Below are positions 15,552 to 47,598 of a stretch of 64,000 bases of DNA, piece after piece. The stretch comes from Dictyostelium discoideum (Eukaryota): contig CM000150.2 of the NCBI GenBank assembly GCA_000004695.1, forward strand, positions 768,001 through 832,000, written 5' to 3'. A program made the position numbers and the translations under genes. The stretch's first letter is position 1. Each line of letters opens with the position of its first letter. A model generated the notes under the pieces. The model saw only the letters and a program-made list of their open reading frames with translations, was not told the DNA's origin and did not search any database.

Positions 15552-16006
15552 ATGGAAGAAAGTAGTTATGATAATTTTAATATTAATAAATTTAATATTA
15601 ATTTAAATAAAGTTGGTGATGATGATGATAATAATAATAATAACAATATCGTAAATAATAATAATATTATTTATCCCATAAATGATATAAATAATGAAAA
15701 TAAAGGAAATACTAAAACTGGTGGGTTTTTAGAAAATATTAAAATTACAGATCAAGATAATTCATTAGGTGAAGAGAATTATGATTTGGAAATAAATTAT
15801 GAAGTCGTTTTGGTATTTGATAAATCTAAAAAAGTAGTAAGCGACGATCCAAAGTTAACTTGGGATATTATTATAAAAAAAACAATGAAAATATTAAAAG
15901 AATTAAATCTGTATTCAGTTTTAAAAGTTGGTACACTTGATGAAAATCATATTTTTATAATTGTTGGTACAACTGATGAATTGTTTGTATTTTATTTATT
16001 TTTTGG

Positions 16007-16045
<39 letters not shown>

Positions 16046-18233
16046 TTTATTAAAATTAAATAAAATTTATAGGTTAAGACATTATTGTATTGATAATTAT
16101 ATTCAAATTCAAAAGAAAATTGTAACGGAAACAACAAGAATTTCAGAATCAATGCGTTTACATTTAGTTGAAACAATTTTAATTAATTCAAATGATTTAA
16201 AGTATATATATGATGATGATTTTGTTATTGATAAATATCCATATGCAAATAAAAATTTTGAAACACTTAAAAGAGAATGTCAAAAGAAATGGTTTTTTCA
16301 ATCATTAGATATCAACGTTATTAAAGATTATTTTGGTGAGGAAGTTACATTTTATTTTTTATTTTTAAGTATGTAGATTTTAAAAAAAAAAACTAATATT
16401 AGTTTATTTGTTGTTGAAATTATTAATATTATTAAAAAAAAAAAAAAAAAAAAAGGATTTTATAATGTTGGTTTAGGTATTGTTAGTTTATTTGGTTTAG
16501 CAGTTGCAATTGTATCATATACAAGAGATTCATATAAATTTGCAAGTTCATCATTTTCAATAGCATTGGCAGTTTTATCAACATTATTTTTTGAAATTTG
16601 GAAACGTTATGGATCAATTTATTCATGGAAATGGGATCAAGAAGATTACATTGATGATGAGGAACAATTACCATCATTTAAACCAGGTAATTTCTCTGAA
16701 GGTGTTTATCATAAAGGAATCTTTTTAAAATCAAAACATTTTGGTAAAAAAGTTAAATACGTTCAAAAGAATATTACAACTAGACCTTATTTAACAAGTT
16801 ATCAACAAAAAATGAAACTTCTTAAAACCATTGGTACCTTTTCAGTGGTTGTAACATTAGTTTTAATTGTACCAATTTTTACAATTTCAATTTTCACCCT
16901 TAGAATAGCCTTAGAATCAATTGAAAATAAAACAGTTGAAAGTGGTATTGGTTCAGTAATAAATGCATTGTTCATTCTATTCTTCAATTTTATTTATAAA
17001 AATATTGCATATTTTTTAACTAAATTTGAATCTCATAGAGTCGCTTCTTCATTTAATGCAAGTTATTCAACCAAACTTTTCCTATTCCAATTTGTAAACA
17101 GTTTTTCAGGTTTATTTTATATTGCATTCCTTAAAAATAATGTTTATTTATGGGGTGATATTGATTTAGAAGATACATGTAGTACTCCAAATAAAATTGA
17201 TGGTTTATGGAAAGGTTGTACAGAAGATTTACAATTTCAATTATTTTCAATTTTAGCTGTTAACTTTATTGCTTCAATTTTCTCTGAATTATTAGGACCG
17301 TATGTAATCATTATTATTTTTAATTTTAAATTAACTATTAATTAATTAACCATATCTTATTATTATTATTATTATAATTATTATTAGTTGGATTCAATAT
17401 TATATTAAAATTATAAGACAAAAACCAACAGGATTTAGAGAGAAAATTGAACCATTTGAACAACAATTTTATAGAGATACATTTGATACATTTCAAGAGT
17501 TTAATCAAATTATTATTCAATTTTCATATATATCAATGTTTAGTGCTGCATCACCAATTTCACCAATAATTTCATTCTTTCATAATATATTTGAAGAAAG
17601 AGTTGATAGTTATAAATTAATTAATTCATTAAGAAGAGTAATATCTATATCTATAATTTTATTAAAATAATAATAATAATAATAATTTTATTAATTTAAT
17701 TTTTTATTTTTATTTTTATTTTTATTTAGCCAAATTATAATGGTTCAAATGGATTAGGTAGTTGGTTTTTTATTATTGTTTTAGTTGGAATGTTTTCAGT
17801 ATTAACAAATGTTTTATTAATTGGATTTTCATTCCCAACTTTATTATATTTTACAGATTCTCCATATAATGTATTATGGATTGTATTTATTTTAGAACAT
17901 TTAGTAATTTTAACAAAGGTAGTTTTAGCAAAAGCAATTCCAGATGAAACTAAAAAATTAAAGAAAAAGAAAGCATCATTAGATTTAATCACAAAATCAA
18001 TTATGGAAAATGATAGAGAACTTTCAAAATTATTAATTGAAAAAATTAAATCCAATGAAATTCCATTAACAAATGATATCAATCCAGATAGTAATCAAAA
18101 TAATATTATACCAACTCCATTCACTTCAAAAACTAGACAACGTGCATTATCAATCTCTTCAAAAATTTCAAAAACAATGCATTCTGTAATTAATATAAAA
18201 CATGATGTTGATTATGAAGATGAAAATAAATAA
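15552..18233 (+). CDS. Anoctamin / TMEM16-family protein (Ca-activated channel/scramblase family); join(15552..16368,16456..17299,17388..17637,17730..18233)
   Basis: Exon 1 ends ...IKDYFGEEVTFYFLFL (the typical anoctamin pre-TM1 motif) with a GTATGT donor at 16369. Exon 2 (R-FYNVGLGIVSLFGLAVAIV...FEIWKRYGSIYSWKWD...KLFLFQFVNSFSGLFYIAFL...) carries the conserved anoctamin FxFQFVNxYxxLFYIAF block and ends at a GTATGT donor (17300). Exon 3 (...DTFQEFNQIIIQFSYISMFSAASPISPIISFFHNIFEERVDSYKLINSLRR) matches anoctamin EMVLQFGFVTIFVAAFPLAPL...IRLDAxK and ends at GTAATA (17638). Exon 4 is PNYNGSNGLGSWFFIIVLVG...FILEHLVILTKVVLAKAIPDE.... Exon 1 has an A37-38 run (16010-16047) that may be a missed intron. 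Confidence 0.75.
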
Positions 18234-18321
18234 ATAAAATTTCACTAAACATTTAAATGTTAGGTGGTTGATATTATAGTAACAATTAATATATAACATA
18301 ATTAAATTATAATACATATTT

Positions 18322-34088: not shown

Positions 34089-35443
34089 ATGGAGAATAGT
34101 GAAGATATTTCATTGAATTCTTCTGAAAAATCGATAGAATCTAGTGTTGTTAATTTAGAGGATCAACAACAATCCCAACAACAAACCCAACAACAAACAT
34201 GTCAAAAAACATTTGTTCAAGAAGCACCAGAATTAACAATACTAATTGATAAATTAATTCAACTTAAACATTCAAATAAAGATGAATTAATAAGTAATAC
34301 TACTAGAATAATCTATATAATTGATCAATATTTAGAACAACCAACATTATTAGATATTCATTTAAACGATATAATTCAACCATTAATAAATTTCATAAAA
34401 TCAAATTATATAAATAACTCTAATAATAATAATACAACAACAACAACAACAACAATAATGACTGAAACAGAAATAGTAATAAAGAAATTATCAATTAAAA
34501 ATTCATTTAGAATTATATATGTCCTATCAAAAGTTAGAGGATTTAAAACAATAGTTAAATTATTTCAACACGAAGCAATTGATCTATTACCAGTATTAGA
34601 TCAATTAGAGATCTCTTATCACCAATGGGTTAATATTAATAAACAAAGAGATAGATTAAATGAAATTTCAGTTTCATATTCAAGTGGTATAAATTTAAAA
34701 AACTATATCAAACCAGAAGAAGAATCAGAACAAGAAGTAGTAGATGAAAATAATAATAATATTAATAATAATCATAATATTGATGATGAATATAATGAAA
34801 ATATTATATCATGGGAAGAAGTTTATGTGTTAGCATTATGGGTTTCATTATTAGTTATAATTCCATTTAAATTTAGTTCATTAGATTCTGCAAGTAGTGG
34901 TACTGCTTCTGCTGCTGGTGATGGTGGTGATGGTGATGGTGATGGTCAATTAAAAAGTATATCATCAAGAATTTTAAAATTAGGTAAATTAGCATTAAGT
35001 GATGTTTCAAAGATTAGAGATTCTTTCTCTGAATTATTATCAAAACTTTTAAATAGACCTGATATGAAATTTGAACAAAAACAATTTATAAAATGGTGTA
35101 CAAATTCAATTCAATTAATTAGTAATAATAATAATAATAATAATCAAAATAATAGTAGTAATAATAATATATTATTAATTATTGGTATATATAGTACATT
35201 AGCAACAATGTTTAAAAAAGGTAATAGATTAGACTTTTTACCAATTGATATGAATTTATATGAAAAGATAATGGAAGCAAATAAATATTTATCATTATCA
35301 GGTTCAGAACGTATTACAAAGAAAATATTTTTAAAATTATTACAAAGAATTGCAATCATTATGTTACCACCAGTATCTGCTTCTTGGAGATATCAAAAAA
35401 TAATTAAACCATTATTATTAAAAGGTGAATTAATAAAACAAAT

Positions 35444-35474
<31 letters not shown>

Positions 35475-38400
35475 AATAATAATGAAGAAGGAGAGGAAGA
35501 GGAAGAAGAAATACCAGAAGAAATTGATGAAATTTTAGAAGAGATTATGAAATCATTAAAAGATAAAGATACAATTATTAGATGGACTAGTGCAAAGGCA
35601 ATTGGTAGAATTGTAAATTTATTACCAAAGGATATGGGTGATCAAGTGATTGGCTTGGTTATTGATCAAATGTTTGAGAAGAATGAATTCATTGATGCAG
35701 ATCCGTCAGCATGGCATGGTGGTTGTTTGGCATTGGCAGAGTTGGCACGTAGAGGTTTACTATTGCCAGAGAGATTGGATGTAGTTGTGCCATTGGTGAT
35801 AAGAGCACTGTTTTTCGATATCATTAAAGGCACCTACAGCATTGGGTCACACGTTAGAGATAGTGCTTGCTATTTATGTTGGGCACTGGCTAGAACCTAT
35901 CATAATTCCATTCTCTCGCCATACCTATTACCAATTTGTAGAAATTTAGTCGTAGTTTCGTTATACGATCGTGAAATTAATTGTAGGAAATCTGCATCGG
36001 CTGCATTTCAAGAAATGGTTGGCAGACATCAAGGATTAGTACCTAACGGTATTGAAATTGTAACGAGTGCTGATTTCTTTACAGTTGGTAATAAAAATAA
36101 TTCATTTACAAGTTTGACCACATTCATTGGTAAATTTCAAATTGATTATTATCCAATAGTTATTAAACATTTGGCAACTATAAAAATCTATAATTGGGAT
36201 TTAGAAATCCGACAATTAGCAAGTAAATCAATTCATCTATTAACAAATATTAATCCAAATGATATCGTTAGTAATTATTTACCATTAATTATACCAAATA
36301 CACAATCTGATTTAGTTCATGTTAAACATGGTGCTTCATTAGCAATATCTGAAATTTTAATTAGTTTATTTGAAAATAATAATATTAATTTATTATCTGA
36401 TAATTTAAAAATGGTAAATATATCTATATTTAATAATTTATTATTATTATTATTTTAATTTATTAATTATATCTTTTTTTTTTTTAAAATAGATGATTTT
36501 AATGACAATTAAAAATACAAAGAATGAAAAATTATTTAAAGGTAAAGGTGGTGTTTTAATTAGAATTGGAATGTGTAAAATTATTTATTCAATTTGTTTA
36601 GTTGAATTTTCGTTAGATAAGAATTTATCAGAAATTAAAAAACCAACAGAATCAACTAGTACTAATGGTAATGAAGATAGAGCAGCAGCATTAAAATTAA
36701 AAATTGCAATGTTAAAAGCAAAAACAGCATCACAAATTAATAAACCAATTATTACACCTCCATCATCAAAATCTACAACAAATAATAATAATAATAATAA
36801 TAATAATAATTTAAATGATAATGAAATTGCATTTAATATTATACTTGGATATTTAAATGAAAATTTAAATCATCCAAATGAAGAAGTTCAAAAAGAAGCA
36901 AGTAAAGCATTTGAATTATTATTTAGTAAATATATATCATCGAATGAAAAGATATCATTATTATTAGAATTAATTGATTCACATTGTAAGACATTAAAAT
37001 TTGATATAAATAGATCAGCAAGAAGAGGTTCATCATTATTATTAGGTTCATTACCATTCAATAGTGCAAATTTATCATATGACCTTTTATCAAAGGTTGT
37101 AAATGAATTAATTCTTTCAATATTTCAAGATGACCCTAAATTTAAAGATATTGAAACTAGAGTTAATTCAATCTCTTCATTATATAAAATTGGAATTTAT
37201 ATTTTAAATTTAATATTTAAAAATCAAGAAAATGAACAAAAAGAAGAAGAAGATTTTAAAAAATCAAAAAATTATAATTTATTTATTAAAATTTGGAATT
37301 GTTTAGGATTAGCTACAAATGATTATTCAATTGATAAAAGAGGTGATATTGGTTCTTGGGTTAGAGAATTATCATGTAAAGTTTTATTTGATTTTATTAA
37401 ATTTATTATTACTAATCAAAATAGCTCAACTACCACTACTACTGCCAGTACTACTGACTTATCAATTGAAAATTTAATTAATGAAAAAATGATTACAGAA
37501 TTCATTTGTAAATTATTCCAACTTTCAGGTGAGAAATTGGATAAGATTAGAGATGTAGCTTGTAAGATAATTCATGAATTACTTTGGATTGAGAATCCAT
37601 CATCAATTAATAATATACCGCATAAGGAGGAATTAAAGAAAATCATTGTAAAGGATCAAGATGTTCATTTCAATTGGTTTAGAACAGAAGAATCTTTACC
37701 ATTAATTTGTAAAGTGCTCAAATTCAATTGTTATTTATATCCATTACTATTCGGCTTATTCTCATCATTAGGTGGTACTTCGAAATATTTAATTAACGAT
37801 TCCATTCAATCGATTAAACAATACTTTTCATCATTTGATAATGACGAAAAAGAGAGATTTGAAAAAATTATATCATTCTCAAAAGCAATATTAGAAATAA
37901 CTAATAATACAACTCAAAGAATGATACAACCAACTTTTAGATCAATTTATAATCTTTTATCAACTCATATATTTGATTTCTTAATAATTAATAATTTAAA
38001 TGAACAATCTATTTTTGAAACTATTTTATTTAATTGTTATCAAATTATTGAATCAAATCAAGATGATATTTATTTATTATTAAATTCAATTGAATTGTAA
38101 GTAGTGTTTTTAATGTTATTATTATTATTATTTGTAGTAGTAGTGGTGTGTATTCCTATATTAACACTTATTTTTTTATTATTTTTTAGATTTTCATACT
38201 TTTTCATTCAATTTGAAAATAATAATAATGAATATATTAAAGATTATTCATTAAAAGCTTTATTATTATTATTATCTAATTTAAAATATCCAAAAGTTAG
38301 AAAATTAGCATCTGATCAATTAAAGAAATCAACTAGATTATTTATCAACAATAATGGGGATGATGAAACACCATCCTTAATTAAATCATTAATATTCAAT

Positions 38401-38703
38401 ACAAAATGGGATGATTCTGTAGATTTGATTATAGAACCTTTAAAATCATTATTATTACTTTTAAATCAAAAACATTTATTAGAATTATTATCTGAAAATC
38501 CAACTAAAAAACCAATACCATTAGCTCCACCAATTACATCAATTGAAGAATTAAAAGATAAAATTCAAAATCCACATAAACAATCAGATGATAATAATAA
38601 TAATAATAATGGTGAATTAATAAATAATAATACTGAAAATAATAATAATAATAATTTTGATGATAATTTACCAGAAGATTCTCAAGATTTAATGGAAATT
38701 TAA
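34089..38703 (+). CDS. tbcD: Tubulin-specific chaperone D (tubulin folding cofactor D, TBCD); join(34089..36413,36493..38096,38190..38703)
   Basis: The N-terminus (IIDQYLEQPTLLDIHLNDIIQPLINFIKS...SKVRGFKTIVKLFQHEAIDLLPVLDQLE) matches the human TBCD N-terminus (MDKYQEQPHLLDPHLEWMM...TKVRGYKTFLRLFPHEV). The central block RWTSAKAIGRIVNLLPKDMGDQVIGLVIDQ...AWHGGCLALAELARRGLLLPERL...VRDSACYLCWALARTY...REINCRKSASAAFQEMVGRHQGLVPNGIEIVTSADFFTVGN is highly similar to human TBCD. Intron 1 has a GTAAAT donor (36414) and AG (36491/36492). Its placement gives LSDNLKM-MILMTIKNTKNEKLFKGKGG, which is length-matched to human [27 protein letters not shown]. Intron 2 has a GTAAGT donor (38097) and AG (38188/38189). 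After it, LLLLLSNLKYPKVRKLASDQL matches LFLLLGHPFPVIRKTTASQVY. Confidence 0.85.
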
Positions 38704-38803
38704 AAAAAAATAAAATAAAATAAAATAAATAAAAATAATTGTTTTTTTTTTTTTAATTTTTTTTATTTTATTTACATTTATTTTATTTGTTTTTTGTTTT
38801 TAT

Positions 38804-41101
38804 TTAATAACCTCTAATTTCTTTTAAAACTTTATCTTTTTCACTTGAAGAAACTTTACCATAACTTGAAAATTCCATTGAAAAAGAAGCATTACCAGAA
38901 GTGAAACTTCTCAATTGAGTTGAATAACCAATCATTTCTTTAAGTGGAACGATAGCAGAGATTATATGAGTATTCTTTTCCATACCAACATCTAAAATTG
39001 TACCTCTTCTTTGACGTGATAAATCTGATAAAACATTTCCAAGATATTTTTCATCAACAGTAATTTCAATTTTCATTAATGGTTCTAAAATGATTGGTTC
39101 GCATTGTTCACCCAATGCAATAAAATTTTTAATACTACTCATTCTAAAAGCTAATGGTGGTGAATCAGAATCTGAATTATAATCAATGGCACTTATGGTG
39201 ACTTTAGTATCAACAACTGGGAAACCCATTGGTAAACCACGTTGGAATGATGATTCTAAACCTTCGGTTATTGAAATTTTAATTTTTTCCAATGTTGATT
39301 TATCAAATGATTCTAAAAATCCCTTTTTGAAATCGAAAATGATTTCATTACCTGTACCAATTTCTTTTGGTTCAATTGACATATTAATACCAGCATGGAA
39401 TGTTTTCATACCTGTACCAGTTTGGATGTTAAATTCTGATTGATTGATTCCATCATCAGCTTCATCAAATGTTGATTGTGATGAATAAGAAATTGAGCCA
39501 CGATATTGAACTTGCATTTTACCCATTCTACTATCGACTTTAAAGTGATTATCTAAACGATCTTTTATAATCTCCAAATGAAGTTCACCCATACCACTAA
39601 TTAAAATATTTTGATCATCTGTAACTTGAAAATGGAATGATGGATCCTCTTTTTGAAGAATAGTTAATGCATCTATCAATTGTGGAATTTCACTTTCAGA
39701 ATTTGCTTCCAATGTACAAAAGAAAACTGGTGGTGGTGTTTTAATACCATTTAATATGATTTTTGGTGCCTTATCAAAGTCTCTAACTAGTGTATCACCG
39801 GTTGAAACATTCTTTAAACCAAGGATTGCACCAATATCACCAGCTTTCAATTCTTGAATATCATCCATTTCACTTGCTGATACTTGAAGTAATTTTGTTG
39901 CTCTTTCTCTTGATTTTCTTGTTGAATTATAAATGTTTGTACCAGCTTTTAATATACCAGAATAAACACGAGTATAAACTATTAAACCACGTCTTGGATC
40001 ATGTACCACTTTAAATGCCAATGCTACCAATTCACCTTTTGTATCACTTTTAATTGGTATATTGGTTTTAGGATTTGATTCATCATATGGATTTGGTAAA
40101 ATGGCTAATGGTGGTTCTCTATCGATTGGTGATGGTAAAAAATCTACAACACTATCCAATAATTGTTGAACACCTTTATTTTGTAATGATGTACCATATA
40201 AAACTGGTACTGCTTTAATTGATAATGTTACTCTTCTAATTGCTTCTTTCATTTGAGTTGGTGTAATTTTTGAATCATCACCATCATTCTCCAAGTATAA
40301 TTGTAACATATCTTCATCCAAATCTGAAAGTTTTTGAATTAATTCCGATCTTTTCTCTTTAACCAATTCAATTGTCTCTTGATCCAATAAAGTTTGATTT
40401 GATGTTGACGTTGTTAAAAGTGGTGTTTTTTCAATGATTTCACCTTTTTCACCTGACCATGAAATTAAATTCATTTCAATTAAATCTACAACAGTTGAAA
40501 ATTTTGCACCAGTGCCTAATGGCCATTGAATTGGTAAAGGATTTGCACCTAAACGATCAGTCATCATTTTTAAAGTTTTATCAATTGATGAACCTTCTCT
40601 ATCCATTTTATTGATAAATGCAATTCTTGGTACTTTATATCTTTCCGCTTGATTCCAAACTGTAATGGATTGAGCTTGAACTCCTGCAACACCATCAAAA
40701 ATTGCAACACCACCATCAATCACTCTAACTGATCTTTCAACCTCAACTGTGAAATCAACATGTCCTGGTGTATCTACAATATTAATTCTATGATCATTCC
40801 ATGGAATTGTAACTGTTGCTGCACCAATTGTAATACCTCTTTCTCTTTCTAATTTCATATAATCCATTATTGTATCTCCTTTATGAACTTCACCAATTCT
40901 TTTAATTAAACCTGAATAATATAACATTCTTTCACATGTTGTGGTTTTACCTGCATCAACATGTGCAATAATACCAATATTTCTATAATTATTTATTTGA
41001 TTTGAAACATTTTTTGTTTGATTTAAAAATGATGAATAATTTCTAATTGAATTTTGAATTAAATTTTTTCTAATTTTATTATTACATAAATTTTTTAACA
41101 T
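38804..41101 (-). CDS. gfm2: Mitochondrial elongation factor G 2 / ribosome-releasing factor 2 (EF-G2mt, GFM2-type)
   Basis: A 765-aa single ORF. It has an N-terminal presequence-like region ([25 protein letters not shown]). Its G-domain motifs are closer to GFM2 than GFM1: [21 protein letters not shown] (GFM2 [21 protein letters not shown]), [47 protein letters not shown] and [15 protein letters not shown] (GFM2 PRICFLNKMDKTGAS). EF-G domains II-V are present ([10 protein letters not shown]..., [21 protein letters not shown]). Confidence 0.85.
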
Positions 41102-41236
41102 ATTTAATTTTTCGTTTTTTTTTTTTTAATTTAAAAAAACGAATAATTAAATGTAAAAACTAATTTTCATATTTTTTTTTTTTTTCAAAAAAATAAAATT
41201 TTTTTTTTTTTTTTTTTTTAATCACCATTTGATTTT

Positions 41237-41371
41237 ATGAAAAGATTTTATTCAACTTTAAAAAAAATGTCTGATTTAACAATTTGCACTCATTCAGGTA
41301 GTTTTCATGCTGATGAAGCTTTAGCTTGTTATTTATTAAAATTATTACCAACATATAAAGATTCAAGTAAG

Positions 41372-41402
<31 letters not shown>

Positions 41403-42455
41403 AACCGAACGTTTTAAGAAAACTAATTTCTAAAAATAATTTTTTTTTTTTTTTTTTATTTATTTTTAGAAATTATTAGAAGTAGAGATAAAAGTGTAAT
41501 TGAAAAATCAACAGTTGCAGTTGATGTTGGAGCAGTTTATAATTTTGAAAAATTAAGATTTGATCATCATCAATCAGGATTCACAGAAACATTTGATGAT
41601 AAACATGATATTAAATTATCAAGTGCAGGTTTAATTTATAAACATTATGGTAAAGATATCATTAAACAACGTTTAGATACAAATGATTCAATTACAGAAT
41701 TATTATATCAAAAACTTTATGATAGTATGATTCAAGAATTGGATGGTGTTGATAATGGTGTTGAAAGATATCCATCAGATATTAAACCAAGATATCAATC
41801 TGGTTCATCAATTAGTGCTAGAGTTGGCCATTTAAATCAAGGTTGGAATGAACCACAAGATGATGAAATTGTAAATAAACAATTTGAGAAAGCAATGGAA
41901 TTAATGGGTCAATACTTTTTAGATCGTTTAGATTATTATGGTAAAGTAAGTATAAATTTATATAAATAAATATAAATAAATATAAATAAAAAAATAAATA
42001 AATAAATAATAATTTTTTTTATTTTTTATTTTCTAAATTAGTCATGGTTACCATGTAGATCAATTGTTGAAAATGCTTTAGAAAATAGAAAACAAACTCA
42101 TTCATCAGGTGAAATTTTAATTTTAGATATGTTTTGTCCATGGAAAGATCATTTATTCTCATTAGAACAAGAAAAGGATATTAAAACTCCAATTAAATTT
42201 GTACTTTTTGAAGATACATCAGGTCAATGGAGAGTATCAGCAGTTGGTATCAATTTACATTCATTCACACTTCGTTTACCACTTCCAGAGGAATGGAGAG
42301 GTAAAAGAGATGAAGAATTATCTCAAATTAGTGGTATTGAAGGTTGTGTTTTTGCTCATGCAAATGGTTTCATTGGTGGTAATAAAACTAGAGAAGGTGC
42401 TTTATTAATGGCAATTAAAACTTTAAATCAATCTCCAAAAACTTTACTTGAATAA
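41237..42455 (+). CDS. myg1: MYG1 / UPF0160 family metal-dependent protein hydrolase; join(41237..41366,41470..41945,42042..42455)
   Basis: Exon 1 (MKRFYSTLKKMSDLTICTHSGSFHADEALACYLLKLLPTYKDS) matches human [28 protein letters not shown] and has a GTAAGT donor at 41367. Exon 2 starts at AG 41468/41469 and is KIIRSRDKSVIEKSTVAVDVGAVYNFEKLRFDHHQSGFTETF..., matching [41 protein letters not shown]. It ends DYYGK with a GTAAGT donor at 41946. Exon 3 starts at AG 42040/42041 and is SWLPCRSIVENAL...CPWKDHLFSLE...RLPLPEEWRGKRDEELSQISGIEGCVFAHANGFIGGNKTREGALLMA, matching human HSWLPARALVEEAL...CPWKEHLYHLE...RLPLPEPWRGLRDEALDQVSGIPGCIFVHASGFIGGHRTREGALSMA. Confidence 0.85.
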
Positions 42456-42582
42456 ATAAAATAAAATAAAATAAAATAAAATAAAATAAAATAAAAAAAA
42501 AAAAAATAGATCTATAGTTTAATTTATTATTTTTATTTTTTATTAATTATTTATTATATAAATTACTAGTTTTGAAAATTTT

Positions 42583-43511
42583 TTAATTACTATTAATTTC
42601 TTTTAATTTTGTTTCAGTTATTTTTGTAATTGATTTTATATAATCATCAGTAATTTTTTGAATATTTTTTTCAAGGGTCTTTTCATCATCTTTTGTAAGT
42701 TTGTAACGTTTTAAAATATCCATACCATCTTTTCTGTGTCTTCTAATTGAAACTTTTGCATCTTCAGAGATTGTATTTACTTGTTTAATTAATTTTTGTC
42801 TTAAATCTTGAGTTGGTTTTGGTAATGATACTCTAATTGTTGTATCAAATGTTTGAGGATTTAATCCTAATCCAGAGTTTGTTAATGCTCTTTCTACATT
42901 ACTAAGTAACTTTATTATTATTATTATTTTTTATTATTATTAAAAACAATTATTAATTATTAATTATTAATTGTTTTTTTTAAAAATTTAGTTTTTAAAA
43001 TACATACAGAACTATCATATAATGTAATATTTAAAGTTAAAGAATCTTTAATAGTAATCATTGCCATATGTGGTAATAGTAAATTACCACTTGGAGTTTC
43101 AACATTAATACGTTCTAATAATTCTGGACCAACACGACCAAAACGAATATTACCTAATTCTCTTGAAACGTATTCTATAGTTTTATCACCTTGACTACTA
43201 ACTGAACTAATATCAACTTGTTTCCATGGTGTGAAAACTTCATCATCTTTACTATTGCTTTTACCACCACCACCACCACCACTCTTTTTAGCTCTTAATG
43301 TCATTACTGAATTTTCATTAAAAATTGAAAATGGTGATCTTCTTTGAAATGATGATGTTGTTGTGGTTTTTGCAACACTAATAATACCTCTATAAGTTTG
43401 TTGTTGTTGATTTGAATTGTTACCAATTGAACGAACAAAACATCCTGAAAATCTATTAATTCCTCTAATCATTTTCTTTTTTTTTTTTTTTTTTTTTATT
43501 ATTTTTTTCAA
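42583..43511 (-). CDS. mrrf: Ribosome-recycling factor, mitochondrial (RRF/frr family); join(43511..43008,42909..42583)
   Basis: Exon 1 has a basic N-terminal presequence (possibly starting at the second Met, MIRGINRF...). It runs ...DKTIEYVSRELGNIRFGRVGPELLERINVETPSGNLLLPHMAMITIKDSLTLNITLYDSS and ends at a GTATGT donor (43007). The 98-bp intron ends at AG 42911/42910. Exon 2 is LLSNVERALTNSGLGLNPQTFDTTIRVSLPKPTQDLRQKLIKQVNTISEDAKVSIRRHRKDGMDILKR...DDEKTLEKNIQKITDDYIKSI.... It aligns across the whole RRF domain with E. coli RRF (IRTGRASPSLLDGIVV...[54 protein letters not shown]...). Confidence 0.85.
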
Positions 43512-43549
43512 ATAATAAACACAAATGAAAATATAATATATCTTAAAAA

Positions 43550-43590
<41 letters not shown>

Positions 43591-43677
43591 AAAAAAGTAT
43601 AAACGAAATTTTTACGAGATATTCATTTTTCATATTTTCATTTTATTTTTATTTTTATTTTTATTTTTTATTTTTTT

Positions 43678-46600
43678 TTAATCAAATAAATTAAAATTTT
43701 TTGAATAAATTAAATTATTCAAATGATTGATAAATTCTATTGTAATGAAAGAATTTTGTGAGATTTCTTTTGATTTTATAATATAGTAATTATTATTGTA
43801 AGATCTTCCAACCCATTTTTCATCTAAATAAATATTTGTGCATTTGATTATATTATCACCATCTTCATCATGATTGTCACCATTTTGAATATTCTTTTTA
43901 ATTTCATATATCCAATTTAATATGATATCATATTGATCACTACCACCACCACCAGATAAACTATTAATATTCCATACTTTATCGATATTACACGACTTGA
44001 TTTCAACTAAAGAGGAGGAGGAGTTATTATTATTTGCAATTGTATGATGATCACAAGAAATAGTATCCAATGTAACTTCACCAATATAAACATTATATTG
44101 ATCCAATTTATCTTTTTTATTATTACCATCACTTGTAATACTGTTGTCATCCTTTGAATCTATCTTTTTATCTTGATTATTTGAATTTGGATTTGAATTT
44201 GGATTTGGTATAGAATTTCTATCAATACTATTAGATTTGAAATTATAACTAAATGATTTAATTTCTTTTAATTTTATAATATTATTATTTTTGTTGGTAT
44301 TATTAAATATGAAATCATCAATATTTAAACAAAATTTAGATTGATACCAATCTAAATGAGCATTTATAATTTCATCTTGATCAGATTCATAAATTATATA
44401 TTCATTTTGATTATTTGTTGCAGTATTAATATTGAATGGAAATATTTGTTGTTTATTATCAATACTGTTACCCAATGTACTTGGATGTAAAATGATATTC
44501 TTTATATTCTTTTCTTCATTATCACTAAATACCAATATCAAACATAGTTTACTAATTTGTTCTGATAATTGAATCTTTGGTATTGATTTTACACTCCATG
44601 TATATGATATTAATAATTGTTTTTCTTTTAATTTAATATCAGTTTTAAATAATGTTGAAATTGAATATTTATCATCATCATCATCATTATTATTATTATT
44701 ATTATTATTGATAGAATAATGTTTAAATTGATTATTACCAATATTTGAAATTGTTTCTAATTTACCCTTTATATTTAAAGAAGAACCACCATTAAATGAA
44801 ACACTATATGAAGTGGTTGATAAAATTAATTTTGAACCAATTTGATATCTATAATCTTCTTCACAACCAATAATATCTTGATCAGATAAATTGAACCATT
44901 TAGAATTTGATACGATTTTACCATTTATCCAATATTTCTTTCCTTTACCTCTATTAAAACAACTTGAAAATGGTAATGAATGAATTGAAATTCTTTCATC
45001 TGTAACTGATCTAATTGAATTATAGTTATTATTATTATTATTATCATCATCATGATCGTCATCACTATTTAATGTTGTTGTTGTTTTTTGTTGTTGTTTA
45101 GATTTATAAATTGGTTTTGCAATAATTTGTAAATTTATACCAGATATTGAAATTTCATCATTATCAGAAGTATTATTAATAATGATATCAATGAATCTAA
45201 TACCAATTGGATATTCTCTAATTGTTAATTTATATTTTTTCCATTCATTTCTAACTTTTGATAAACATTGTGTATTAAATTCTTTTAAAACCGTTAAATT
45301 TTCATCCAACATTATTAAATTAACTGGATAATTATTACTATCAGTTTGATTGATTGATGATGTTGATTTATAATAAAATTCAAATTCAATCATTGGTAAT
45401 TTATCCAATATTTCTTTTGTAAACATTAATATTCTATTATTATTATTATTATTATTATTATCATTTTTACTAATATTAAATAAATCAATTCTCTTTTTAA
45501 ATATTGAAAAGAATTTCGAATCATATCTAGATGATTTAATAGATTTAAATGATTTACCATTACCATTTAATAAACCATTATTATCAATAACCCAATGATA
45601 TCTATTATTATTATTATTATTATTATTAGTATTAGTGGTAGTATTAAAAATTGGAGACCAAGTTGAAAAATTACCATATTCAGCCGAACCATTTTCAACT
45701 AAATTTTGAACTAAACTACCTAACCAAAATGATTTCTCCCTTTCAATTACCATTTTACTTGATGAGTTTGCATCTTCATAAGTCCAAGCTGGTGCAAATA
45801 TTGCACTTGATAATTGATTTAAATCTGCTTCTTTCAAACCTATCCATGAATTAAATTTGCCACCACCAAATGTACCTCTTCCCCAACAATCTGTACCAAC
45901 ATAAACATTTTTACATTTTTCATTTATTTCTTCATCATTACAATCATCTTTATTATTATTAAGATTTGAAATTATATTGAAAGAATTTTTTAAATTATCT
46001 TTATTCCAACAATAATTTAAGAAAATCCCATCACAATTTTCAAAAAATCTATAATTCTTTTCATTTAATTCATTCTGCCAATTTAGTTCACCATTTGAAG
46101 TAACACTATCATACCAAATAATTAATGGTTTTTCATCATTATCTTCATGAATATCACCACCAACACTACCACTATCACTACTACCACCACCAATAATTAT
46201 TGAATTTTTATGAATTGAATTTGTAAAATTTTTTAAAAATGAAATATATTTTTCAACATATGATGGATGATCTAATAGTGATGTTTCTAAATTTAAAAAC
46301 CAACCATCAAATTTAAAATGATTTGAAATTTCAATTAATTTATTTATAAAGTGATTAACATCTTCTTGAATACCGTCAACCAATAAATAACAATCTGATA
46401 GGGATTGATCCCATTCCAATATGATTGTACCTAAAACTTTTACACCATTTTTATGAGCTGAATTGATCCAACCAACTGGTGGTATTGAAATTCTATGATG
46501 TGAGAAATAAATAAAAGTATCAATTAAATTCCAATGATAGAAATTATAAAATTCACTTGACCATAATGTTTTCCTATCATTAATTCCTTCATAAATACCT

Positions 46601-46728
46601 TGACAATATTTATCAATTTGGTAACCATTCATCATATCATGACAATGAATTCTTTTCGTAATATTATTTGATTTTTTAATTCTTTTATTTAATTTTATTG
46701 TTGAAATATTTATTAAATCATTATAATT

Positions 46729-46760
<32 letters not shown>

Positions 46761-47598
46761 GGTGTTGTATTTGTTGTTGTGGATTAATTGTTGATTTCCA
46801 ATTTAATAATTCTAATATTGAATTTAAAGGTTTAATAGTTGAAATAAAAGAATTACCTAATAATGATTTATTTTGAATATTTGGTGGATAGCTTGGTTGT
46901 TTTAATATTGAATTATTTTGAAATATTGTTGATAATATATCATGTCTATCATTTAAATGAATTGTTAAATCTGATAAAATCATTTCATTTGATAAATCTT
47001 TACTTCCTATAATTAATGGTGATTTAGATATATTAATTGGTGATTCATATGTTTCATTGATTGTATTATTATTTTCATTATTTAAATTACTATGATTGTT
47101 ATTCTTTTCACAATAATTTGTCTGTTTATAAATTTTACAATTTAAATAAATTTCAGTTGATATTAATTGTGTTCCACTATCATTAAAATTTAATTTAAAA
47201 ATTAAAAATTCCCAATGAAAATATTTTAATTCATCTTTACTTGTATGATAAATTGAATGAATTGAAGTTCTATTTGTTGTTGTTGAATCATTGTATAATC
47301 TTTTATCAAATGACTGATTACCAAAGAAAATACCTGTATCAATATTATTATTTTGTAATTGTGAAAATATTCTATTTACTCTATTATTATCATCTCTATT
47401 GTCATCTTCATTTGGTATCATATAAATCCAACATGAAATTGAAATTGATTTAGTACTATCAATGTGATTTTCTTCTCTATTAAATTCTTCACACATTAAT
47501 ATACTATTCCATGGTATTATAATTTCACTACCATTATTATTATTATTTTTATTATTACTTCCTAATTTGATATTATCAATTAATTTTTTTGTTTTCAT
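43678..47598 (-). CDS. Cytosolic endo-beta-N-acetylglucosaminidase (ENGase, glycoside hydrolase family 85)
   Basis: A 1306-aa single ORF. The GH85 catalytic region is HCHDMMNGYQIDKYCQG...FYNFYHWNLIDTFIYFSHHRISIPPVGWINSAHKNGVKVLGTIILEWDQ...FKFDGWFLNLETSL...LIIWYDSVTSNGELNWQNELNEKNYRFFENCDGIFLNYCWNKD...VYVGTDCWGRGTFGGGKF...AIFAPAWTYE. It matches human ENGASE (HCHDMKGGYLEDRF...FYHWQCIDVFVYFSHHTVTIPPVGWTNTAHRHGVCVLGTFITEW...FRFDGWLINIENSL...LVLWYDSVVQSGQLKWQDELNQHNRVFFDSCDGFFTNYNW...VYVGVDVFARGNVVGGRF). There are long N-rich inserts and a Q11 tract. Confidence 0.85.

What the first reader, a model, noticed from the sequence alone, without database searches (positions are those of the whole stretch)
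38804..43511. The two mitochondrial ribosome-recycling partners (EF-G2mt/gfm2 and RRFmt/mrrf) sit within 1.5 kb of each other, flanking MYG1
EF-G2mt (RRF2mt) and mitochondrial RRF act together to split post-termination mitoribosomes. Their genes lie at 38804..41101 (-) and 42583..43511 (-), and only the MYG1 hydrolase gene at 41237..42455 (+) separates them. MYG1 is itself a mitochondria/nucleus dual-localised protein in other species. Tight physical linkage of direct functional partners is rare in eukaryotes and could reflect shared regulation.
Basis: partly seen in the sequence, partly recalled or inferred. Interest (0 to 1): 0.55.

Follow-up and report, generated by a model that had tools for sequence, protein, structure and literature searches.

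The report
Mitochondrial recycling-factor genes flanking MYG1
In Dictyostelium discoideum the genes for the two mitochondrial ribosome-recycling factors do flank the MYG1 RNA-exonuclease gene, but this trio is two older MYG1-centred gene pairs that came together fairly recently, and the two recycling genes are neither co-regulated nor kept together in most relatives.

Summary
The window is D. discoideum AX4 chromosome 1 and carries an EF-G2mt-type gene (38804-41101, -), MYG1 (41237-42455, +, two introns) and mitochondrial RRF (43472-42583, -, one intron). These are the annotated proteins XP_647292, XP_647293 and XP_647294. The EF-G is the GFM2 type, not GFM1.

The "linked recycling partners" reading is only partly supported.
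- **Synteny:** the trio is intact only in the D. discoideum complex (D. discoideum, D. citrinum, D. firmibasis).
- **Older pair:** a tail-to-tail RRF/MYG1 pair is also found in Cavenderia, Tieghemostelium and D. purpureum.
- **Younger pair:** a head-to-head GFM2/MYG1 pair, with TBCD beside it, is also found in Polysphondylium violaceum.
- **Losses:** each pair has been lost in other lineages, and neither exists in Balamuthia or Planoprotostelium.
- **Promoters:** GFM2 and RRF have separate promoters about 2.4 kb apart.
- **Expression:** their mRNA profiles correlate no better than random genes on filters (r = 0.28) and only moderately in suspension (r = 0.54). GFM2 and MYG1 share a 135-bp divergent spacer and do co-vary (r = 0.75 and 0.74).

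Best reading: MYG1 is the hub of a loosely held neighbourhood produced by rearrangement history. Real promoter sharing applies only to GFM2/MYG1. This is a modest curiosity, not a regulatory unit for ribosome recycling.

The parts
38804..41101 (-). GFM2-type gene (EF-G2mt / ribosome-releasing factor 2, mitochondrial). Single exon, 765 aa. Annotated as XP_647292.1 / Q55G92; inferred dictyBase ID DDB_G0267766.
   Evidence: ORF. Five EF-G domains. RRF2mt scores 503/500 bits against 378 for EF-G1mt; a profile gives 827/822 against 628. Exact match to the AX4 protein. The first 40 residues before the G domain are basic and acid-free.
41102..41236 (.). 135-bp divergent spacer between the GFM2 and MYG1 start codons. 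It is a candidate bidirectional promoter.
   Evidence: Sequence. The spacer is 140 bp in D. citrinum, 184 bp in D. firmibasis and about 471 bp in P. violaceum. GFM2 and MYG1 mRNA levels correlate at r = 0.75 and 0.74. Promoter function is inferred, not shown.
41111..41143 (.). CG-containing inverted repeat, TTCGTTTTTTT ... AAAAAAACGAA, inside the divergent spacer.
   Evidence: Both arms are present in D. discoideum and D. citrinum, and one arm in D. firmibasis. It is absent in D. purpureum and P. violaceum. TTTCGTTT is not enriched in the window overall: 7 found against 4.3 expected. This is a weak lead only.
41237..41366 (+). MYG1 exon 1. It has two in-frame start codons, at 41237 (MKRFYSTLKK-) and at 41267, which is the annotated start.
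   Evidence: A basic upstream extension before an internal Met is also seen in D. purpureum, P. violaceum, T. lacteum and C. fasciculata.
41470..41945 (+). MYG1 exon 2.
   Evidence: GT..AG intron at 41367-41469. The spliced product is identical to XP_647293.1 from M11.
42042..42455 (+). MYG1 exon 3, including the stop codon.
   Evidence: GT..AG intron at 41946-42041. Pfam MYG1_exonuc 8e-136 over residues 15-330.
42456..42582 (.). 127-bp tail-to-tail spacer between the MYG1 and RRF stop codons.
   Evidence: The same spacer is 36 bp in T. lacteum and 68 bp in C. fasciculata.
42583..42909 (-). Mitochondrial RRF exon 2, including the stop codon.
   Evidence: The spliced product equals P0001 / XP_647294.1.
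43008..43472 (-). Mitochondrial RRF exon 1. It starts at the ATG at 43472 and encodes an N-terminal extension of about 90 aa ahead of the RRF domain.
   Evidence: Pfam RRF covers residues 103-260. Alignments to bacterial RRF start at about residue 90. The first acidic residue is at position 53, preceded by 7 K/R.
43473..43677 (-). RRF's own upstream region. It runs up to the stop codon of the GH85 gene and is separate from the GFM2/MYG1 spacer.

Best explanation
**What the genes are.** The three genes are ordinary, separately transcribed nuclear genes for mitochondrial proteins: EF-G2mt, the MYG1 3'-5' RNA exonuclease, and mtRRF.

**How they came to be neighbours.** Their adjacency is the sum of two MYG1-centred neighbour pairs of different age.
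1. A convergent RRF/MYG1 pair dates back to the common ancestor of the sampled Dictyostelia. It was later lost in the Heterostelium/Acytostelium lineage and in P. violaceum.
2. A divergent GFM2/MYG1 pair, next to TBCD, arose by rearrangement no later than the Dictyostelium/Polysphondylium ancestor. It was broken again in D. purpureum.

Only the D. discoideum complex still has both pairs, so GFM2 and RRF end up 1.5 kb apart there.

**Regulation.** GFM2 and MYG1 share a 135-bp divergent spacer, which probably acts as a bidirectional promoter and explains their co-variation. RRF has its own promoter on the far side and is regulated partly differently. The GFM2-RRF proximity is therefore a by-product of history, not a device for co-regulating the two recycling partners.

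**Shown:** gene identities, layout, distribution across species, and expression correlations.
**Inferred:** promoter sharing, the order of the rearrangements, and the absence of selection on the trio.
For: **Identity:**

**Trio present:** D. firmibasis and D. citrinum have GH85(+) RRF(+) MYG1(-) GFM2(+) TBCD(-), the same as the window.

**RRF/MYG1 pair without GFM2:**
- C. fasciculata.
- T. lacteum.
- D. purpureum, where MYG1 is inverted.

**GFM2/MYG1 pair without RRF:** P. violaceum has TBCD(+) GFM2(-) MYG1(+) Fes1(-), and its RRF lies on another contig.

**GFM2 apart from MYG1:**
- D. purpureum keeps GFM2-TBCD but has MIX23 upstream instead of MYG1. Its anoctamin orthologue lies on the other side in the window, which indicates an inversion break at the GFM2 5' end.
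- GFM2 and MYG1 are on different contigs in T. lacteum, H. album, A. subglobosum, C. fasciculata and Balamuthia (contig lengths).

**No linkage outside Dictyostelia:**

**Local background:** between major dictyostelid groups, RRF and MYG1 are the only genes shared by the ~20-kb loci and the 64-kb window.

**Expression** (Rosengarten 2015 supplementary tables, PMC4403905):
- GFM2-MYG1: r = 0.75 and 0.74. Only 0/62 and 1/62 background genes reach this.
- GFM2-RRF: r = 0.28 and 0.54. On filters 28/62 and 18/62 background genes do as well.
- RRF alone has a second peak at roughly the mid-to-late filter samples.
Against: - Three consecutive mitochondrial gene-expression genes are expected only about 0.03 times per genome by chance.
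- MYG1 keeps one or other translation-factor neighbour in six of the eight dictyostelid lineages sampled here, although all surrounding synteny has decayed. Some selective retention of each pair therefore cannot be excluded.
- In D. purpureum the RRF/MYG1 adjacency survived even an inversion of MYG1.
- All three mRNAs fall 6- to 28-fold within the first hours of starvation. MYG1-RRF correlate at r = 0.84 in suspension.
- The expression null is small (62 genes from one chromosome region) and GFM2 counts are low after 0 h.
- The dictyBase IDs for GFM2 and MYG1 were inferred. They are supported by read-count/length ratios of 2.326 and 1.247 against the expected 2.321 and 1.25, not by a database look-up.
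Confidence: 0.6

Rival explanations
1. **Selected functional cluster.** The three genes form a small mitochondrial translation-termination and recycling neighbourhood. Selection keeps them together because a shared chromatin or promoter context balances the doses of EF-G2mt, mtRRF and MYG1.
For: - All three products act in mitochondrial gene expression.
- All three have presequence-like N-termini.
- All three are growth-phase genes that collapse on starvation.
- The trio is stable across D. discoideum strains, D. citrinum and D. firmibasis.
- A run of three such genes is expected only about 0.03 times per genome.
Against: - The trio has been broken in D. purpureum and P. violaceum and is absent in the four other dictyostelid genera sampled and in the two other amoebozoans.
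- GFM2 and RRF share no promoter, and their profiles are no more alike than random genes on filters.
- About 10% of background genes show the same starvation drop (6/62).
Confidence: 0.12
2. **MYG1-centred functional link.** MYG1 works directly with the recycling machinery, for example by trimming mRNA or rRNA 3' ends on post-termination mitoribosomes. Each pair (RRF/MYG1 and GFM2/MYG1) would then be retained individually by selection for co-regulation with MYG1.
For: - MYG1 is the only common member of both conserved pairs.
- These pairs are the only synteny left between major dictyostelid groups in the loci examined.
- GFM2-MYG1 correlate at r = 0.75 and 0.74, and MYG1-RRF at 0.84 in suspension.
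- In mammals and yeast MYG1 processes the 3' ends of mitochondrial rRNA and mRNA and controls mitochondrial translation (PMC6582341).
Against: - Each pair has been lost at least once without loss of the genes.
- There is no linkage in Balamuthia or Planoprotostelium.
- No RRF or EF-G gene lies within 6 kb of the four bacterial MYG1 homologues with flanking sequence.
- MYG1-RRF correlate at only 0.32 on filters.
- Very short spacers (36-135 bp) by themselves make breakage between the genes unlikely or harmful, which is a neutral explanation for retention.
Confidence: 0.18
3. **Assembly or annotation artefact.** The adjacency or the gene identities are wrong.
For: - The D. purpureum RRF/MYG1 scaffold is only 6.6 kb, and the P. 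violaceum contigs are short.
- Some orthologue gene models are clearly faulty at the N-terminus: the RRF models of H. album and C. fasciculata.
Against: - The same order is seen in independent assemblies of several D. discoideum strains, D. citrinum and D. firmibasis.
- The spliced models reproduce the database proteins exactly.
Confidence: 0.02

Closest known systems
EF-G2mt / RRF2mt (human GFM2; PDB 7L20 chain w, 7NSH chain BC) acting with mtRRF (human MRRF)
   Same: - Five-domain EF-G architecture.
- Scores much closer to RRF2mt than to EF-G1mt.
- No mtEFG1-type C-terminal extension.
- A presequence-like N-terminus.
- The partner gene has a full RRF domain behind an N-terminal extension of about 90 aa, as in mammalian mtRRF.
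   Different: - Bacterial EF-G (Thermus) scores as high as or higher than mammalian RRF2mt.
- The domain IV match is weak (6.5e-09).
- Recycling-only activity has not been tested in any amoebozoan.
- In humans the genes are unlinked: GFM2 on chromosome 5, MRRF on chromosome 9 and MYG1/C12orf10 on chromosome 12. This is from my own knowledge; only the C12orf10 name appears.
MYG1 / UPF0160 3'-5' RNA exonuclease (mouse and human MYG1, yeast YER156C)
   Same: - Full-length PF03690 match at 8e-136.
- The His/Asp positions in the HSGSFHADE and DHHQ stretches are invariant in the alignment.
- Two in-frame starts would allow a mitochondrial and a nucleo-cytosolic isoform. That fits the published dual localisation (PMC6582341).
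   Different: The possible presequence in D. discoideum is only 10 aa and is not part of the annotated protein. Localisation in Dictyostelium is untested.
Bidirectional (head-to-head) promoter gene pairs in compact eukaryotic genomes
   Same: GFM2 and MYG1 diverge from a 135-bp spacer and co-vary in two independent time courses at r ~0.75. The head-to-head layout is shared with P. violaceum.
   Different: No transcription start sites or promoter elements have been mapped. The spacer sequence is conserved only among very close species.
Bacterial operons linking translation factors (for example frr with neighbouring genes, fusA in the str operon)
   Same: Functional partners in translation lie next to each other.
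   Different: The genes are on alternating strands with separate promoters and introns, so there is no polycistronic transcript. Bacterial MYG1 homologues are not next to frr or fusA.

Membership tests
EF-G2mt / RRF2mt (GFM2 orthologue) | EF-G five-domain architecture (G domain, II, III, IV, V) | tested here: met
   Pfam GTP_EFTU 2.6e-59, EF-G_D2 8.7e-13, EFG_III 1.7e-18, EFG_IV 6.5e-09 and EFG_C 2.8e-26.
EF-G2mt / RRF2mt (GFM2 orthologue) | Closer in sequence to characterised RRF2mt than to EF-G1mt | tested here: met
   As a single sequence it scores 503 bits (7l20_w) and 500 bits (7nsh_BC), against 378 bits for 6vlz_v. A profile of 14 orthologues scores 827/822 against 628. The nearest named non-dictyostelid homologues are called 'Ribosome-releasing factor 2, mitochondrial'. 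No tree including GFM1 sequences was built.
EF-G2mt / RRF2mt (GFM2 orthologue) | [quoted passage not shown] | tested here: met
   The query ends about 5-6 residues after the aligned region, as RRF2mt does (690 of 696). EF-G1mt has about 19 further residues (732 of 751). The feature is described in 10.1101/2021.03.10.434893.
EF-G2mt / RRF2mt (GFM2 orthologue) | Mitochondrial targeting | tested here: inconclusive
   The protein has a 40-aa N-terminal extension before the G domain, with no acidic residue before position 49 and 7 K/R. The extension is present in all dictyostelid orthologues. This is a heuristic only; no trained predictor or localisation data were available.
EF-G2mt / RRF2mt (GFM2 orthologue) | Splits post-termination mitoribosomes with mtRRF and does not translocate; a separate GFM1 gene exists | not testable with these tools
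   This needs biochemistry. A gfm1 paralogue elsewhere in the D. discoideum genome is recalled from memory and was not checked here.
Mitochondrial ribosome recycling factor (MRRF orthologue) | Full-length RRF domain | tested here: met
   PF01765 at 7.6e-46 covers residues 103-260 against profile positions 2-163 of 164. It matches bacterial, chloroplast and mitochondrial RRF structures.
Mitochondrial ribosome recycling factor (MRRF orthologue) | Nuclear gene with an N-terminal extension or presequence | tested here: met
   The gene has an intron. An extension of about 90 aa lies ahead of the RRF domain, and the first 52 residues are acid-free with 7 K/R. Import itself was not tested.
MYG1 / UPF0160 exonuclease | Full-length PF03690 domain with conserved His/Asp motifs | tested here: met
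   8e-136 over profile positions 1-318 of 318. H9, H14, D16, D65, H66, H67 and Q68 are invariant across 14 eukaryotes.
MYG1 / UPF0160 exonuclease | Dual nuclear and mitochondrial localisation | not testable with these tools
   Two in-frame starts with a basic upstream extension are seen in five dictyostelids. This is compatible with dual localisation but is not evidence of it.
Co-regulated functional gene cluster (GFM2 + RRF as a unit) | Gene order conserved in related species | tested here: not met
   The trio is found only in the D. discoideum complex. It is absent in the eight other amoebozoan species examined.
Co-regulated functional gene cluster (GFM2 + RRF as a unit) | Co-expression of the partners above background | tested here: not met
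   On filters r = 0.28, exceeded by 18-28 of 62 background genes. In suspension r = 0.54.
Co-regulated functional gene cluster (GFM2 + RRF as a unit) | Shared promoter or transcript | tested here: not met
   Both genes are on the minus strand with the plus-strand MYG1 gene between them. Their start codons are about 2.4 kb apart, and RRF has its own 205-bp upstream region.
Bidirectional-promoter gene pair (GFM2 / MYG1) | Head-to-head genes with a short shared spacer | tested here: met
   The spacer is 135 bp. It is 140 bp in D. citrinum, 184 bp in D. firmibasis and about 471 bp in P. violaceum.
Bidirectional-promoter gene pair (GFM2 / MYG1) | Correlated expression | tested here: met
   r = 0.75 on filters and 0.74 in suspension. 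Only 0/62 and 1/62 background genes reach this.
Bidirectional-promoter gene pair (GFM2 / MYG1) | Mapped divergent transcription starts or shared cis-elements | tested here: inconclusive
   A CG-containing inverted repeat is shared by D. discoideum and D. citrinum only. The motif is not enriched in the window. No TSS data are available.

The most novel reading that the evidence does not exclude
MYG1 is a previously unrecognised working partner of the mitoribosome recycling machinery. One possibility is that it trims RNA 3' ends on post-termination complexes. Dictyostelids would then have kept its gene beside mtRRF since their common ancestor, and later beside EF-G2mt, because co-regulation with MYG1 matters. 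On this reading the D. discoideum trio is a rare eukaryotic example of a selected mitochondrial-translation gene neighbourhood.
Probability: 0.1. Interest if true: 0.6.

Novelty: new member of a known kind. Interest (0 to 1): 0.3.

Why it matters
If the neighbourhood were selected, it would be a natural hint that the MYG1 exonuclease is tied to mitochondrial translation termination and recycling, and it would give an easily manipulated model for that link. As the evidence stands, it mainly shows how a striking 'functional partners side by side' pattern can arise from two unrelated neighbour pairs and rearrangement history.

The practical outcomes are modest:
- The D. discoideum gene labelled 'mitochondrial translation elongation factor G' (Q55G92) is the EF-G2mt (recycling) type.
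- GFM2 and MYG1 probably share a bidirectional promoter.
- MYG1 may have an unannotated upstream start that gives a mitochondrial isoform.

Tried and rejected
- **Bacterial context of MYG1 homologues.** One scan of genome contigs found only 5 loci. None of the four with flanking sequence has RRF or EF-G within 6 kb, so there is no operon support.
- **A shared cis-motif.** TTTCGTTT occurs in both the GFM2/MYG1 spacer and the RRF upstream region. It is not enriched in the window (7 against 4.3 expected) and is not conserved beyond the closest species.
- **Is the 1467-aa gene next to T. lacteum MYG1 TBCD?** That would have implied an insertion of GFM2. There is no tblastn match, so this was rejected.
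- **First inference that GFM2 joined only after the D. purpureum split.** The P. violaceum locus overturned this.
- **Proteome and localisation evidence.** The supplements of the D. discoideum mitochondrial compendium (PMC9118663) and of a 2026 spatial-proteomics preprint are not held as text.
- **Background synteny rates.** Heidel et al. 2011 is not held, and Kjellin 2021 gives no protein-gene figures.
- **Other expression sources.** The Parikh 2010 supplements are not held, and a proteomics paper had no hits.
- **The Ribosomal_S19 fragment next to P. violaceum RRF.** It is the cytosolic RPS15 type, so it is not another mitochondrial translation gene.
- **A GFM1/GFM2 tree.** Score differentials against solved structures were used instead.

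Full report
**1. What is there**

The window is AT-rich and matches D. discoideum AX4 chromosome 1. The RRF product is identical to XP_647294.1 / DDB_G0268518, and the EF-G product to XP_647292.1 / Q55G92.

- **EF-G-type gene:** a single 765-aa ORF at 38804..41101 (-).
- **MYG1:** three exons at 41237-41366, 41470-41945 and 42042-42455 (+), with canonical GT..AG introns. From its second Met it is identical to the annotated XP_647293.1 / U160_DICDI.
- **RRF:** two exons at 43472-43008 and 42909-42583 (-).
- **Pfam:** all five EF-G domains, MYG1_exonuc at 8e-136 and RRF at 7.6e-46.
- **Layout:** TBCD(+) ends 100 bp from the 3' end of GFM2(-). GFM2(-) and MYG1(+) are head-to-head with a 135-bp spacer. 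MYG1(+) and RRF(-) are tail-to-tail with a 127-bp spacer. RRF's own upstream region (205 bp) abuts a GH85 glycosidase gene.
- **Spacing:** the two recycling-factor coding sequences are 1,481 bp apart.

**2. Is the EF-G the recycling paralogue?**

Yes, as far as sequence can tell.
- Against all PDB chains it scores 503 and 500 bits to human and pig 'Ribosome-releasing factor 2, mitochondrial', against 378 bits to EF-G1mt.
- A profile of 14 eukaryotic orthologues widens the gap to 827/822 against 628.
- Its C-terminus ends with RRF2mt. EF-G1mt carries about 19 extra residues. That extension is mtEFG1-specific and sterically excludes mtRRF (Kummer et al. preprint).
- The closest named non-dictyostelid homologues are annotated RRF2mt.
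- Bacterial EF-Gs score equally well, so 'EF-G2mt' rests on the contrast with EF-G1mt, the nuclear location and the N-terminal extension.
- I could not build a tree containing GFM1 sequences.

**3. Targeting**

- GFM2 has a 40-aa extension and RRF an extension of about 90 aa relative to bacterial homologues. Both are basic, rich in Ser/Thr and acid-free over the first ~50 residues. This holds across dictyostelid orthologues.
- MYG1 has two in-frame starts. The upstream one adds MKRFYSTLKK. Similar basic extensions precede an internal Met in D. purpureum, P. violaceum, T. lacteum and C. fasciculata.
- That is what dual targeting by alternative initiation would look like. It fits the nucleolar plus mitochondrial-matrix localisation shown in mammals and yeast (PMC6582341).
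- These are heuristics, not predictions from a trained tool.

**4. Comparative gene order**

In each locus below, the looked-up gene (RRF unless stated otherwise) is on the + strand.

| Species | Arrangement found |
|---|---|
| D. firmibasis, D. citrinum | GH85(+) RRF(+) MYG1(-) GFM2(+) TBCD(-), as in the window |
| D. purpureum (RRF scaffold) | RRF(+) MYG1(+), i.e. MYG1 inverted, then an RWD/IBR gene |
| D. purpureum (GFM2 scaffold) | MIX23(-) GFM2(+) TBCD(-) |
| P. violaceum (MYG1 locus) | TBCD(+) GFM2(-) MYG1(+) Fes1(-) |
| P. violaceum (RRF locus) | RRF on another contig, next to a cytosolic RPS15 fragment |
| T. lacteum, C. fasciculata | RRF(+) MYG1(-), with 36-bp and 68-bp spacers |
| H. 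album, A. subglobosum | RRF(+) UCH(-), no MYG1 |
| Balamuthia (MYG1 locus) | No partner gene nearby |
| Planoprotostelium (GFM2 locus) | No partner gene nearby |

Further points:
- In D. purpureum an anoctamin orthologue lies on the opposite side relative to the window, which implies an inversion break at the GFM2 5' end.
- GFM2 and MYG1 are on different contigs in T. lacteum, C. fasciculata, H. album, A. subglobosum and Balamuthia (contig lengths).
- In all-against-all tblastx, RRF and MYG1 are the only genes shared between the ~20-kb loci of different major groups and the 64-kb window.
- An unnamed EukProt dictyostelid has MYG1 as 'gene4015' and GFM2 as 'gene4016'. In neighbour-joining trees it branches near Tieghemostelium and Polysphondylium. 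This hints that the GFM2/MYG1 pair may be older, but it rests on gene numbering alone.

**5. History**

The species tree used here is from my own knowledge: Cavenderia plus Acytostelium/Heterostelium on one branch; Tieghemostelium, then Polysphondylium violaceum, then Dictyostelium on the other.

The most parsimonious reading is as follows.
- The convergent RRF/MYG1 pair is ancestral to the sampled Dictyostelia. It was lost twice, in the Heterostelium/Acytostelium lineage and in P. violaceum.
- The divergent GFM2/MYG1 pair arose once, by the Dictyostelium/Polysphondylium ancestor, and was lost in D. purpureum.
- The trio therefore dates to about that ancestor but has since been broken in two of the three descendant lineages sampled.
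- MYG1 is the hub. GFM2 and RRF are neighbours only through it.

**6. Expression**

Rosengarten et al. 2015 (PMC4403905) supply per-gene read counts for filter development (38 samples) and suspension (29 samples).

*Gene IDs.* RRF is DDB_G0268518. I inferred GFM2 = DDB_G0267766 and MYG1 = DDB_G0267768 from GenBank accession spacing. I confirmed this from the ratios of raw to length-normalised counts: 2.326 and 1.247, against the CDS-length ratios 2298/990 = 2.321 and 990/792 = 1.25.

*Pearson correlations of log-scaled counts.*

| Pair | Filters | Suspension | Background genes reaching the filter value |
|---|---|---|---|
| GFM2-MYG1 | 0.75 | 0.74 | 0/62 and 1/62 |
| GFM2-RRF | 0.28 | 0.54 | 28/62 and 18/62 |
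| MYG1-RRF | 0.32 | 0.84 | 29/62 and 12/62 |

- All three fall 6- to 28-fold in the first hours of starvation. So do 6 of 62 background genes, and that interval is a genome-wide down-shift of growth genes.
- RRF alone rises again in the mid-to-late filter samples.
- Caveats: the null set is small, and GFM2 counts are low after 0 h.

**7. Interpretation**

- The genes alternate strands and have their own promoters, so there is no operon-like unit.
- Only GFM2 and MYG1 can share a promoter, and only they co-vary consistently.
- A CG-containing inverted repeat in their spacer (41111-41143) is shared with D. citrinum and half of it with D. firmibasis, but not beyond. The motif is not enriched in the window.
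- RRF/MYG1 retention could reflect selection. It could equally reflect a 36-127-bp tail-to-tail spacer that offers almost no harmless breakpoint.
- Bacterial MYG1 homologues give no independent support for a functional link to RRF or EF-G.

**8. Chance**

These figures are inference and rest on assumptions: about 12,500 genes (from memory), and category sizes read from a flattened table in the D. discoideum mitochondrial compendium, taking the first number of each triplet as the total (91 'ribosome & translation' genes; about 174 gene-expression genes in all).
- The specific pair lying within two positions has p ~3e-4.
- About 1.3 such pairs are expected among the 91 genes.
- A run of three from the 174 is expected about 0.03 times per genome.

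This is unusual enough to notice, but too weak after the fact to carry a functional claim. The comparative and expression data do not rescue the GFM2-RRF claim.

**9. Verdict**

Identities, GFM2 assignment and the relevance of MYG1 hold. 'Shared regulation of the two recycling partners' does not.
- The genes are already annotated. The neighbourhood itself is a new but ordinary example of co-functional neighbours and a probable bidirectional pair in a compact genome.
- The residual interesting possibility is a real MYG1-recycling link, at roughly 10%.

Noticed in passing
window 41237-41269; L004 2927-2974; L010 9938-10003; T. lacteum and C. fasciculata MYG1 N-termini (P0182, P0185): MYG1 has two in-frame start codons in at least five dictyostelids. 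The upstream one adds a short, basic, acid-poor extension (D. discoideum MKRFYSTLKK, D. purpureum MIRRFFSSSSLFLSK, P. violaceum MFYLKRSIQSTYFQGLRSFTS) that most annotations omit. This may give a mitochondrial and a nucleo-cytosolic isoform by alternative initiation.
   Followed up: partly
window 41111-41143 and 43601-43608 (-): A CG-containing inverted repeat (TTCGTTTTTTT...AAAAAAACGAA) lies in the GFM2/MYG1 spacer and is conserved in D. citrinum. A single TTTCGTTT lies about 135 bp upstream of the RRF start. CG dinucleotides are otherwise almost absent from these spacers. The motif is not enriched window-wide and is absent in D. purpureum and P. violaceum.
   Followed up: partly
Rosengarten 2015 supplementary file 2, DDB_G0268518 (RRF, window 42583-43472): RRF mRNA has a second peak in the mid-to-late filter-development samples that GFM2 and MYG1 lack. 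The paper mentions a burst of mitochondrial DNA replication before prespore cell division; whether the two coincide in time was not checked.
   Followed up: no
L002 10001-11512 (H. album RRF, P0010) and L001 10001-11711 (C. fasciculata RRF, P0007): The annotated RRF models (369 and 348 aa) have odd N-termini. H. album's looks like a signal peptide followed by a Cys-rich stretch, and C. fasciculata's is acidic. These are probably wrongly joined 5' exons.
   Followed up: no
window 43678-47598 (-): The 1306-aa ORF upstream of RRF is a GH85 (endo-beta-N-acetylglucosaminidase family) protein with long Asn-rich and Gln-rich inserts (Pfam 2.1e-88). Its orthologues in D. firmibasis and D. citrinum carry no Pfam hit on record.
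   Followed up: partly
window ~15858-18239 against L007 2693-5250; window 34188-41101 against L007 10001-16901: Relative to D. purpureum, the TBCD-GFM2 block is inverted with respect to an anoctamin gene. This places a rearrangement breakpoint exactly at the GFM2 5' end.
   Followed up: partly
P0180 ('gene4015-5018_t') and P0062 ('gene4016-5019_t'), EukProt: An unnamed EukProt dictyostelid numbers its MYG1 and GFM2 genes consecutively. This suggests the head-to-head pair also exists in a lineage that branches near Tieghemostelium. The species and its assembly could not be identified.
   Followed up: partly
window 36493-38100 and 38104-38703 (+): The 3' part of the TBCD gene appears as two adjacent ORFs separated by a stop codon or a very short intron. 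The gene model was not resolved.
   Followed up: no
L011 19026-19487 (Balamuthia): A Ribosomal_L17 gene lies about 7 kb from Balamuthia MYG1. Whether it is the mitochondrial type was not checked, and it is probably incidental.
   Followed up: no
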